This document shows, one piece after another, positions 39,968 through 40,074 of a DNA stretch of 64,000 nt. This stretch comes from a phage. Location of the stretch: assembly GCA_036253055.1 (NCBI GenBank), contig GCA_036253055.1_4124.1. The stretch is one strand, 5' to 3'. Numbering within the stretch: position 1 is the stretch's first letter; the number at the start of each line of letters is the position of its first letter. Position numbers and translations under genes: made by a program. The notes beneath the pieces are model-generated. The model was not told the DNA's origin. It was given only the letters and a program-made list of their open reading frames with translations, and made no database searches.

Positions 39968-40074
39968 CAGGGGAGGTTTTCGTATGTCTTACTCCTGGAC
40001 TACTTAACGGGGAGTTACTTGTTTCGTTCCCCGTCCTGATGTAAAACATTATACGCTTATCATGATACTTTGCA
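39968..40074 (-). ncRNA. Candidate structured leader/sRNA element X (copy 1) with its own class-1 promoter
   Basis: Promoter TTGCAA-N16-TATAAT followed by ~80-nt element with nested inverted repeats and no conserved ORF; second copy at 50779-50886. Confidence 0.35.

What the first reader, a model, noticed from the sequence alone, without database searches (positions are those of the whole stretch)
39968..40074. Two copies of a promoter-driven ~80-nt structured element with no ORF, inserted between tandem promoters (second copy 50779-50886)
Upstream of two unrelated genes (39699-39899 and 50097-50708) the same arrangement occurs: distal class-1 promoter, then the element CAGGACGGGGAACGAAAcAAGTAACTcCCCGTTAAGTAGtCCAGGAGTAAGaCAtACGAAAAcCTCCCCTGA, then a proximal consensus promoter, SD and gene. 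The element has nested inverted repeats (ACGGGGA/TCCCCGT; AUCAGG/CCUGAU), and the copies differ by substitutions and a 1-nt indel that would break any peptide frame, so a structured RNA leader, riboregulator or sRNA is more likely than a peptide.
Basis: partly seen in the sequence, partly recalled or inferred. Interest (0 to 1): 0.55.

Follow-up and report, generated by a model that had tools for sequence, protein, structure and literature searches.

The report
Phage early-leader RNA pseudoknot family
The repeated ~80-base element is a real, non-coding, structured leader RNA lying between two back-to-back early promoters, and it belongs to an apparently undescribed small pseudoknot family also found between promoters A1 and A2 of phage T7 and in hundreds of other phages of enteric bacteria; what it does is still unknown.

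Summary
The repeat is real. Two 79-nt copies lie on the minus strand (40040-39962 and 50851-50773). Each sits between a distal (TTGCAA-16-TATAAT) and a proximal (TTGACA-16-TATAAT) sigma-70 promoter, upstream of unrelated genes. They differ by 6 substitutions; there is no indel. A 31-codon ORF spans both copies but is truncated in 8 of 13 distinct homologues, so the element is non-coding.

A third, diverged copy (47964-47892) is a plain 5' UTR with no proximal promoter.

The window is an Asteriusvirus-like jumbo coliphage. The element also occurs in Vequintavirinae, Justusliebigvirus and Autographiviridae. Its 39-nt core matches T7 549-588, between E. coli promoters A1 and A2.

In 43 distinct sequences the core hairpin (GGAG/CUCC in the window) covaries at three pairs. 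A loop base covaries with a base upstream of the hairpin (AU 29, UA 7, CG 6), which indicates an H-type pseudoknot.

Promoter-motif-promoter is the family norm (71 of 82 contexts). Rfam has no match and no paper describing the motif was found.

Function is inferred only. I favour a cis-acting early leader RNA that engages a host factor, protecting early transcription or the RNA itself. Spread between phages looks like promoter-mediated cassette exchange.

The parts
40048..40075 (-). Copy 1 distal sigma-70-type promoter (TTGCAA-16-TATAAT). Predicted +1 is A at 40040, by analogy with T7 A1.
   Evidence: sequence; T7 A1 annotation.
39962..40040 (-). Copy 1 of the element (79 nt). P1 is 40040-40035 with 39971-39966 (AUCAGG/CCUGAU). 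P2 is 40034-40028 with 40013-40007 (ACGGGGA/UCCCCGU). P3 is 39995-39992 with 39975-39972 (GGAG/CUCC). Pseudoknot helix S1 is 40000-39998 (GUC) with 39988-39986 (GAC).
   Evidence: (109.9 bits with model R1).
39970..40008 (-). Copy 1 conserved 39-nt core (AAGUAG-N-C-NN-P3-UAAG-N'-C...GAAAA-P3'), homologous to T7 549-588.
   Evidence: Model R2 55.4 bits, E about 2e-12.
39930..39957 (-). Copy 1 proximal consensus promoter (TTGACA-16-TATAAT, 12/12).
39699..39899 (-). Gene downstream of copy 1 (66 aa, phrog_7744, unknown function).
50859..50886 (-). Copy 2 distal promoter (TTGCAA-16-TATAAT). Predicted +1 at 50851.
50773..50851 (-). Copy 2 of the element (79 nt, 6 substitutions relative to copy 1). 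One P2 pair becomes G-U. The pseudoknot pair is C-G instead of U-A.
   Evidence: (105.1 bits).
50781..50819 (-). Copy 2 conserved core.
   Evidence: Model R2 56.0 bits.
50741..50768 (-). Copy 2 proximal consensus promoter.
50097..50708 (-). Gene downstream of copy 2 (203 aa, phrog_5162, unknown function).
47972..47999 (-). Promoter of the third, diverged copy (TTGACA-16-TAGAAT). Predicted +1 at 47964.
47892..47964 (-). Third copy ('type C', 73 nt). It has the 5' AUCAAGACGGGG, no P2, P3 as CCAGU/ACUGG, and a possible 5'-end closure AUCAAG/UUUGAU (read by eye; not in the predicted fold). No proximal promoter follows, so it is the plain 5' UTR of the next gene.
47911..47949 (-). Third copy conserved core.
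   Evidence: Model R2 55.9 bits.
47375..47857 (-). Gene downstream of the third copy (160 aa, phrog_27871, unknown function).

Best explanation
Each copy is the 5' leader of the transcript that host RNA polymerase starts at the distal early promoter. The RNA begins at the A of AUCAGG, and its first six bases pair with CCUGAU (P1). P1 closes a three-way junction that holds a variable hairpin (P2) and a conserved core.

The core is AAGUAG, a 4-5 bp hairpin (P3) and a 14-nt loop UAAGNCRNANGAAAA. Three loop bases (G-N'-C) pair with G-N-C just upstream of the hairpin, giving a small H-type pseudoknot.

The same core lies between E. coli promoters A1 and A2 of phage T7, and in the early leaders of hundreds of Autographiviridae and of some Vequintavirinae, Justusliebigvirus and jumbo phages. 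The element is therefore one member of a pan-enterophage early-leader RNA family.

Shown here: the repeat, the promoter context, the non-coding status, the homology to T7, and the covariation for P3 and the pseudoknot.

Inferred: unrelated phages share the motif only in the first host-transcribed RNA, so it most likely works in cis through a host component. My preferred reading is that it protects the untranslated early transcript or the elongating polymerase. That could be nut/put-like resistance to Rho or to collisions at the next promoter, with the paired 5' end adding stability against RNase E. I put about 0.3 on that specific mechanism.

Its movement between phages is best explained by recombination between the near-identical promoters that flank it.

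The confidence of 0.5 is for the cis-acting, host-factor-engaging leader reading as a whole. That the element is a conserved structured non-coding RNA motif homologous to the T7 A1-A2 segment I hold at about 0.9.
For: Repeat and promoters.

Non-coding: the 31-aa ORF is truncated to 13-15 aa in 8 of 13 distinct variants (26 aa in one more). The 'start' position of the mini-ORF reads ACG, AUG or AAG in different members.

Strand: stem changes are G-U on the sense strand.

Family:
- BLAST finds the element in 45 phage records from three myovirus groups at 86-99% identity, with different flanking genes.
- Diverged copies were found with model R1.
- T7 549-588 scores 19.5 bits with R1 and 51.6 bits with the core model R2.
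- The T7 A1-A2 spacer matches 488 records, and T7 539-586 is the most widely kept part.

Structure:
- P3 pairs are CG38/GC5, CG36/GC5/UA2 and UA28/AU14/UG1.
- The pseudoknot pair is AU29/UA7/CG6 with 1 mismatch.
- Overall 96.5% of cells are paired, against 25-42% when the partners are slid by 1-3 columns, and 0/500 shuffles reach the observed value.
- Columns 10-23 are the top pair in an all-against-all mutual-information scan (0/20000 permutations).
- Switches occur within close lineages, for example U8 against L070, L081 against L087, and window copy 1 against copy 2.

Context: 71 of 82 distinct contexts have a -35 hexamer 0-41 nt after the core. In 47 of the 84 family members found (all podovirus-type) an rrn-type boxA 12-mer (perfect in 41, one mismatch in 6) follows within 16-431 nt, and none lies upstream.

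Recombination: in SP27 and PBECO4 a gene plus another element sits between two copies of the distal promoter that are merged in the window.
Against: There are no transcript data for any of these phages, so the promoters and the transcription start are predictions.

The pseudoknot helix is only 3 bp. Two of its pairs were fixed by the scan pattern used to collect most of the sequences, so only pair 10-23 is unbiased evidence.

The sequences are related, so counts of cells overstate the number of independent events. I can point to about four or five.

The window's phage has no boxA within 500 nt of any copy, which weakens the nut/rrn analogy here. The core model finds nothing in the E. coli rrnB leader.

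The motif is sporadic in Vequintavirinae and Justusliebigvirus, so it is dispensable there.

Nothing distinguishes a cis-acting leader from a trans-acting RNA.
Confidence: 0.5

Rival explanations
1. It is a trans-acting small RNA or decoy. The distal promoter makes large amounts of the pseudoknot RNA. The RNA is released by processing, or acts while still part of a longer transcript, and it titrates or inhibits a host protein such as a defence sensor, a nuclease or an RNA chaperone. The downstream promoter makes the neighbouring gene independent of it.
For: There are one to three copies per genome, each with its own strong promoter, and usually a separate promoter for the next gene. The conserved, mostly unpaired loop bases look like a recognition surface. 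Sharing across phage families points to a host target. Abundant non-coding RNAs from the terminal repeat are reported in the related jumbo phage PA5oct (PMC7318152).
Against: No terminator or obvious 3' end follows the element. The third copy is a plain 5' UTR. No complementarity above chance was found to anything else in the window. There is no similar sequence in E. coli genomes.
Confidence: 0.2
2. It is a DNA-level element serving the downstream promoter, such as an UP-like element, a protein binding site or a cruciform. It would not be a functional RNA.
For: In T7-like phages the core ends 0-2 nt before the -35 hexamer of A2, and its GAAAAA lies where a proximal UP subsite would be.
Against: The distance from the core to the next -35 varies from 0 to 41 nt, and 11 of 82 contexts, including the window's third copy, have no downstream promoter. 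The stems covary rather than keeping a half-site sequence. G-U pairs fit only the sense strand. The motif always has the orientation of the flanking promoters.
Confidence: 0.08
3. It is a decayed gene cassette that hitch-hikes with promoters. It would be a former 5' UTR with a Shine-Dalgarno sequence and start codon whose ORF was deleted, spread neutrally by promoter-promoter recombination in the manner of PeSL cassettes.
For: AGGAG followed 8 nt later by ACG (ATG in EJP2_B and in the third copy) resembles a ribosome binding site. CCAGGAGUAAG also occurs at real ribosome binding sites in the window (50053, 49152). The 3' end UGAUAAAAUAGUUUGACAAU is identical to the junction after a real gene at 39689. 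Distribution is sporadic in two myovirus groups. There is clear promoter-mediated insertion/deletion.
Against: A neutral remnant would not keep pairing through compensatory changes in 43 distinct sequences, nor persist in 488 records of a different virus family. The Shine-Dalgarno-like AGGAG is replaced by CCAG, CCUG or CUUG in other members while the helix is kept.
Confidence: 0.07
4. It encodes a small peptide, either the 31-codon ORF or a 5-14-codon mini-ORF after the AGGAG.
For: ORFs are listed at 39954-40049 and 50765-50860, both on the minus strand. Three of the 6 differences between the copies are synonymous in that frame.
Against: The ORF is cut to 13-15 codons in 8 of 13 distinct variants by 1-, 2-, 4- and 8-nt length changes. 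Its ATG overlaps the -10 hexamer and has no Shine-Dalgarno sequence. The mini-ORF start is ACG, AUG or AAG, and its length is 5-14 codons.
Confidence: 0.02

Closest known systems
Phage T7 early promoter array A1-A2-A3 and its untranslated leader (called the 'non-coding internalisation signal' in PMC11863960)
   Same: The sequence is homologous: the core model scores T7 549-588 at 51.6 bits. The layout is the same: strong sigma-70 promoter, G-rich 5' hairpin, AAGUAG plus the P3 hairpin, then the -35 of the next promoter. The initial transcribed sequence is similar (AUCGAGAGGGA in T7, AUCAGGACGGGGA here).
   Different: The window's phage is a jumbo myovirus with three copies, all in the part of the genome annotated as direct terminal repeat in a relative. 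P1 closes the whole element after P3. T7 has an extra CCGG hairpin. T7 has an rrn-type boxA further down the leader and the window has none. No function has been assigned to this T7 segment in anything I could find.
PeSL cassettes (promoter-early stem-loops) of T4-type phages (PMC2839356, PMC4122927)
   Same: Both are small regulatory cassettes built from strong sigma-70 early promoters plus a stem-loop. Both sit among small non-essential early genes, lie at the borders of gene replacements, and are shared between phages.
   Different: PeSLs are described as composite terminator/promoter units present in many copies. This element has no terminator-like tail, occurs 1-3 times per genome, and has a conserved pseudoknot core with conserved loop sequence.
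Promoter-proximal antitermination RNAs: lambda nut (boxA + boxB), the rrn leader (boxB-boxA-boxC) and HK022 put
   Same: All are short structured RNAs in the first part of early or rrn transcripts that act on the polymerase that made them. In podovirus members of this family the pseudoknot shares the leader with an rrn-type boxA, and in some it lies only 16-36 nt away.
   Different: There is no boxA near any window copy. There is no similarity to the rrnB leader. I had no sequence model for boxB or put. T7 early transcription is known to stop at its early terminator (my own knowledge), so any effect could not be general antitermination.
Small H-type pseudoknot aptamers (for example the preQ1-I riboswitch)
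   Same: Both are about 30-nt pseudoknots with a short second helix and an A-rich third loop, placed in a 5' leader.
   Different: No Rfam family matches, even at E up to 10. No ligand is known. The resemblance is in topology only.
5'-terminal stem-loop mRNA stabilisers (for example the ompA 5' UTR; my own knowledge)
   Same: The predicted +1 to +6 bases are fully paired (P1). Neighbouring early genes also start with a hairpin.
   Different: A stabiliser needs only a 5' helix. It does not explain the conserved loop sequence and the pseudoknot, nor T7-like members in which the core lies about 50 nt from the 5' end.

Membership tests
T7 A1-A2 early-leader pseudoknot family (defined here) | Core sequence/structure match: AAGUAG-N-C-NN-P3-UAAG-N'-C-RNANGAAAA-P3'. 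| tested here: met
   Model R2 scores 55.4, 56.0 and 55.9 bits for the three window copies. T7 scores 51.6 and T3 52.4. The next best window hit is 12.6 bits.
T7 A1-A2 early-leader pseudoknot family (defined here) | P3 helix and pseudoknot pair kept through compensatory changes. | tested here: met
   Window copies 1 and 2 themselves differ by U-A against C-G at the pseudoknot pair.
T7 A1-A2 early-leader pseudoknot family (defined here) | Lies 20-60 nt downstream of a sigma-70-type early promoter, in the sense orientation. | tested here: met
   These are promoter predictions only; there are no transcript data.
T7 A1-A2 early-leader pseudoknot family (defined here) | Followed within about 40 nt by a second sigma-70-type promoter. 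| tested here: met
   Met for copies 1 and 2 (-35 hexamer 12 nt after the core). Not met for the third copy. Family-wide, 71 of 82 contexts meet it.
PeSL (promoter-early stem-loop) cassette | The stem-loop acts as a transcription terminator (G+C-rich hairpin with a U-run). | tested here: not met
   No terminator-like site lies between the distal promoter and the gene. The element ends CCUGAUAAAAUAG.
PeSL (promoter-early stem-loop) cassette | Sits at the borders of gene replacements and mediates modular shuffling. | tested here: met
   The downstream gene differs among Asteriusviruses from the proximal promoter onward. The same element carries six different downstream genes. A promoter-bounded insertion/deletion is seen in SP27 and PBECO4.
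nut / rrn-type antitermination site | boxA (GCUCUUUAACAA or CGCUCUUA) in the same leader. | tested here: not met
   The best match within 500 nt downstream of any window copy has 4-5 mismatches. It is met in 47 of the 84 family members found (all podovirus-type).
nut / rrn-type antitermination site | Makes the polymerase resistant to termination through Nus factors. | not testable with these tools
   This needs in vitro transcription or in vivo read-through assays.
Any Rfam 15 family | Covariance-model match at or near the gathering score. | tested here: not met
   No hit at gathering score in the whole window. Only noise at E up to 10 around copy 1. No hit at E up to 10 in T7 400-1000.
Small protein gene | Reading frame conserved among homologues. 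| tested here: not met
   the 31-aa frame is kept in 4 of 13 distinct variants, is 26 aa in one, and is truncated to 13-15 aa in 8.
Intrinsic terminator / independent sRNA gene | A defined 3' end (hairpin plus U-tract) after the structured part. | tested here: not met

The most novel reading that the evidence does not exclude
The pseudoknot is a stand-alone RNA device used by many unrelated enterobacterial phages, including T7, in the first seconds of infection. On this reading, the nascent RNA binds a host machine directly. The target could be the elongating RNA polymerase or Rho (put/nut-like, with no phage protein available yet), or an early host defence or RNA-decay factor. A small-ligand-sensing aptamer is not excluded either.
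Probability: 0.25. Interest if true: 0.85.

Novelty: new variant of a known kind. Interest (0 to 1): 0.62.

Why it matters
T7's A1 transcript is one of the most used templates in transcription biochemistry, and the A1-A2-A3 array is a textbook feature. Even so, the conserved structured motif between A1 and A2 seems to have no name, no Rfam family and no assigned function.

The same covarying pseudoknot occurs at the start of the earliest host-made transcripts in podoviruses, rV5-like and phAPEC8-like myoviruses and 350-kb jumbo phages. That distribution points to a shared interaction with the host at the very start of infection.

The question is directly testable in T7, which has easy genetics and where in vitro templates containing this sequence are already in use. 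If the motif turns out to act on RNA polymerase, Rho, RNases or a defence system, it would be a general phage takeover element.

It also gives a clear example of regulatory cassettes moving between very different phage families.

Tried and rejected
- Rfam: whole window at gathering score, copy 1 region at E up to 10, and T7 400-1000 at E up to 10. Nothing was found.
- Host origin or mimicry: blastn of the 81-nt element against 5,426 E. coli genomes found no match. An exact-pattern scan of GTDB genomes found none. The core model on the rrnB leader gave a best score of 3.1 bits.
- More main-type copies by exact patterns: IMG/VR returned only 121Q. The metagenome scan returned only two Asteriusvirus-like contigs.
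- Antisense targets inside the window: only 9-12-nt matches at chance level.
- Alternative long helix (the 5' G-run pairing with the 3' C-run, suggested by the extra G and extra C in phage muut): dropped, because EJP2_B would have a G-A mismatch there while P3 shows a compensatory change.
- CsrA-type GGA sites, considered from memory of the CsrB repeat: dropped, because T7-type cores lack GGA in the loop.
- Peptide coding: rejected.
- boxA near the window copies: absent.
- Function of the downstream genes: no Pfam hits, and PHROG families of unknown function only.
- Literature: no paper found that describes the motif, or transcript maps of Asteriusviruses.
- One IMG/VR pattern scan gave mostly chance hits. 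Only the Dickeya/Pectobacterium phage loci and the 121Q loci were real.

Full report
**What is in the window**

On the minus strand the quoted sequence is present at 40038-39967 and, with substitutions, at 50849-50778. Each half of it occurs exactly twice in 64 kb, against none in shuffled sequence.

Read 5' to 3' on the minus strand, both loci have the same order:
- a promoter-like site TTGCAA-16-TATAAT (40075-40048; 50886-50859);
- the element, AUCAGG...CCUGAUAAAA (40040-39962; 50851-50773);
- a perfect TTGACA-16-TATAAT site (39957-39930; 50768-50741);
- a Shine-Dalgarno sequence and a gene.

No terminator-like site lies in between. The two genes belong to different PHROG families of unknown function.

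A 31-codon ORF covers both copies in one frame. Its ATG overlaps the -10 hexamer. Among 13 distinct homologues the frame is intact in only four, is 26 codons in one, and is cut to 13-15 codons in eight. The element is non-coding.

**Where the window comes from, and who else has the element**

The region is 96-97% identical to the jumbo coliphages phAPEC6 and 121Q, genus Asteriusvirus.

The 81-nt element is found in 45 phage records:
- Asteriusvirus, with two to four places per record. In a record that annotates direct terminal repeats, the copies lie inside them.
- Vequintavirinae (A73, W70, A7_1, A5-4), at up to 98.8% identity.
- Justusliebigvirus (muut, outra, EmilieFrey).

Each of the ~140-kb phages has a single copy, always between two promoters but next to different genes.

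In most Asteriusviruses the homology to copy 1 stops just after the proximal promoter, and a different gene follows. In SP27 and PBECO4 a gene plus another short element sits between two copies of the distal promoter that are merged into one in the window.

So the element travels as a promoter-bounded cassette. This resembles the promoter-early stem-loop (PeSL) cassettes of T4-type phages (PMC2839356, PMC4122927), except that it is not a terminator.

**Structure of the main type**

Single-sequence folds give a three-way junction (z about -2):
- P1, AUCAGG/CCUGAU;
- P2, ACGGGGA/UCCCCGU, with a 12-14 nt loop;
- P3, GGAG/CUCC, with a 16-nt loop.

In 12 distinct main-type sequences 98% of pair cells are paired. 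The P2 loop varies in length while the stem is kept. Two different positions of P2 change to G-U, which pairs only on the promoter-driven strand. One variant, EJP2_B, changes P3 from GGAGU/ACUCC to GGUGU/ACACC. On its own this is weak statistical support (42 of 500 shuffles).

**A wider family**

A covariance model of the whole element (R1) finds a third copy in the window at 47958-47903, with 28.6 bits and E about 1e-5.

This copy has the same start, AUCAAGACGGGG, right after a TTGACA-16-TAGAAT promoter. It lacks P2 and has P3 as CCAGU/ACUGG. It runs straight into the ribosome binding site of a 160-aa gene with no second promoter. It is conserved in all Asteriusviruses.

Further variants:
- EJP2, with P3 as CCUG/CAGG;
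- the Vequintavirinae LTH01 and UPEC06, with P3 as CUUGU/ACAAG.

A pattern scan of IMG/VR brought in ~44-kb phages (Dickeya BF25/12; Pectobacterium PP90, Peat1, Phoria). These have promoter, AUCAGGACGGGG, a different P2, then AAGUAG and P3.

**The link to T7**

The core of these sequences matched my memory of the T7 A1 transcript, so I fetched T7.

T7 549-588 reads GAUAAGUAGACAGCCUGAUAAGUCGCACGAAAAACAGGUA. It lies between the annotated E. coli promoters A1 (start 498) and A2 (start 626), directly before the -35 hexamer of A2. R1 hits it at E = 0.007.

A core model (R2), built from 12 diverse sequences, scores:
- T7 at 51.6 bits;
- T3 at 52.4 bits;
- a Klebsiella phage at 52.4 bits;
- Kayfunaviruses at 46 bits;
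- the three window copies at 55-56 bits;
- the next best window hit at 12.6 bits.

BLAST of the T7 A1-A2 spacer finds 488 phage records, and the part kept most widely is T7 539-586, which is the core.

The T7 leader +1 to +93 folds well (z = -3.7). It forms a 5' helix around a GGGA...UCCC hairpin, a second hairpin, and P3. BF25/12 folds into the same P1/P2/P3 junction as the window copies.

By analogy with T7 A1, where +1 is the A of AUCGAG, 8 nt after the -10 hexamer, the window transcripts should start at the A of AUCAGG. P1 would then pair the very first six bases.

**Covariation**

A second IMG/VR scan followed by R2 gave 84 instances, 43 of them distinct.

| Pair (alignment columns) | Pair types observed |
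|---|---|
| P3, 14-38 | CG 38, GC 5 |
| P3, 15-37 | CG 36, GC 5, UA 2 |
| P3, 16-36 | UA 28, AU 14, UG 1 |
| P3, 17-35 | invariant GC |
| Pseudoknot, 10-23 | AU 29, UA 7, CG 6, one mismatch |
| Pseudoknot, 11-22 | CG 41, UA 1, UG 1 |

Column 10 is the base after AAGUAG and column 23 is the base after UAAG in the P3 loop. The neighbouring pairs are G9-C24 and C11-G22. Together these make a 3-bp helix that crosses P3, which is an H-type pseudoknot.

For the whole structure 96.5% of cells pair, against 25-42% when the partners are slid by 1-3 columns. None of 500 shuffles reaches the observed pairing or covariation score. In an all-against-all mutual-information scan, 10-23 ranks first, followed by 16-36 and 15-37; with background correction 14-38 ranks fourth (0 of 20000 permutations for 10-23).

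Caveats:
- The scan pattern fixed columns 9, 11, 22 and 24, so only 10-23 is unbiased for the pseudoknot.
- The sequences are related. I can point to four or five independent switches: U8-type against L070-type Kayfunavirus-like leaders; L081 against L087; window copy 1 (U-A) against copy 2 (C-G); and EmilieFrey as a single-step C-A intermediate.

**Context across the family**

In 71 of 82 distinct contexts a -35 hexamer with at most one mismatch, plus a suitable -10, follows the core on the same strand at 0-41 nt. So promoter-motif-promoter is the rule. The variable spacing, together with the cases that have no second promoter, argues against a fixed promoter element such as an UP site.

In 47 of the 84 family members found (all podovirus-type) an rrn-type boxA (GCTCTTTAACAA; perfect in 41, one mismatch in 6) lies 16-431 nt downstream and never upstream. 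In some it is only 16-36 nt after the pseudoknot.

The window and the other myovirus members have no boxA. The core model finds nothing in the E. coli rrnB leader.

**What it most likely does**

Nothing here measures function. Three facts constrain it:
1. The motif is shared by unrelated phages of the same hosts.
2. It is placed only in the first RNA made by host polymerase.
3. Its stems covary while its loop bases stay constant.

Together these point to recognition of the folded RNA by a host component, acting in cis on the early transcript. I favour protection of the untranslated early transcript or its polymerase. This could be nut/put-like resistance to Rho, or help in passing the polymerase bound at the next promoter, with the paired 5' end adding resistance to 5'-end-dependent decay. 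I hold that specific mechanism at only about 0.3.

A trans-acting decoy RNA is the main rival (0.2). A DNA-level promoter element, a neutral gene remnant and a peptide are each unlikely for the reasons given under the rival explanations.

**Known or new**

The tandem early promoters of T7 are classical. PMC11863960 calls the region a non-coding internalisation signal. Promoter-bounded cassettes in phage early regions are known as PeSLs.

The conserved pseudoknot itself matches no Rfam family, and I found no paper that describes it. The paper library lacks most of the older subscription literature on T7, so an earlier description cannot be excluded.

I therefore rate it a new variant of a known kind (a structured cis-acting leader RNA), with moderate to high interest.

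Noticed in passing
window 40100-40215; also minus-strand copies near 35367, 37288, 42510, 44174, 50945 and a plus-strand copy near 48565: A second promoter-driven non-coding repeat has at least 7 copies. Each is a promoter followed by about 45-50 nt containing CCCAYAGGGUGC. Four copies have the promoter embedded in a bidirectional terminator-like hairpin (AAAGGGAYUGACUCCGGUCAGUCCCUUU in three, a diverged form in the fourth), and at least two face a convergent plus-strand promoter (40104, 37205). 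One lies directly upstream of the distal promoter of both element copies. The G17 record annotates these hairpins as terminators.
   Followed up: partly
window minus strand, transcripts starting near 36880, 39460, 40905, 43640, 35690: Many early genes start with ACAUCAAGGGGAGAAUAGUUCUCCCC or a close variant, which is a hairpin a few bases after the predicted start. The same promoter-plus-hairpin is found in Vequintavirinae phage A73 (L001:3100-3150). Early regulatory cassettes therefore appear to be shared between these families.
   Followed up: no
L081:4150-4190, L074:5425-5470, L080:409-460, T7 (L044) 812-823: An rrn-type boxA (GCUCUUUAACAA, perfect in 41 and with one mismatch in 6) follows the pseudoknot in 47 of the 84 family members found (all podovirus-type), at 16-431 nt and never upstream. 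Where the spacing is short the pair looks like a nut/rrn-type composite site.
   Followed up: partly
L011 (SP27) 1200-1960 and L012 (PBECO4) 960-1400, compared with window 50700-50960: Most Asteriusviruses carry an extra small gene plus a CCCAUAGGGUGC element between two copies of the distal promoter. The window and phage UB have one merged promoter. This is an insertion/deletion bounded by promoter repeats.
   Followed up: partly
L014 (EJP2) 15343-15413, 19059-19135, 21573-21649; L015 605-670: Phage EJP2 carries four family members. One is strongly diverged, with P2 weakened, P3 changed by a compensatory pair, and ATG where the others have ACG.
   Followed up: partly
window 47858-47885 (minus strand): The ribosome binding site of the gene after the third copy reads UAAACUUUAAUUGAGGAUUUAUAAAAUG. 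From memory, this resembles the epsilon translational enhancer of the T7 gene 10 leader (UUAACUUUAA).
   Followed up: no
L052 and L118 (IMG/VR contigs of 360 and 366 kb): Two other jumbo-phage contigs carry a diverged core (CCUAAGUAGACAGCCAG...CUGGUG) between two AAAAAGTACTTGAC-type promoters. The motif is therefore present in further jumbo phages that I did not identify.
   Followed up: no
hits H129-H132: Four records named 'Campylobacter phage' (about 146 kb) match the distal-promoter region at 94% identity, like Escherichia phages of that size. The host label of these records may be worth checking.
   Followed up: no
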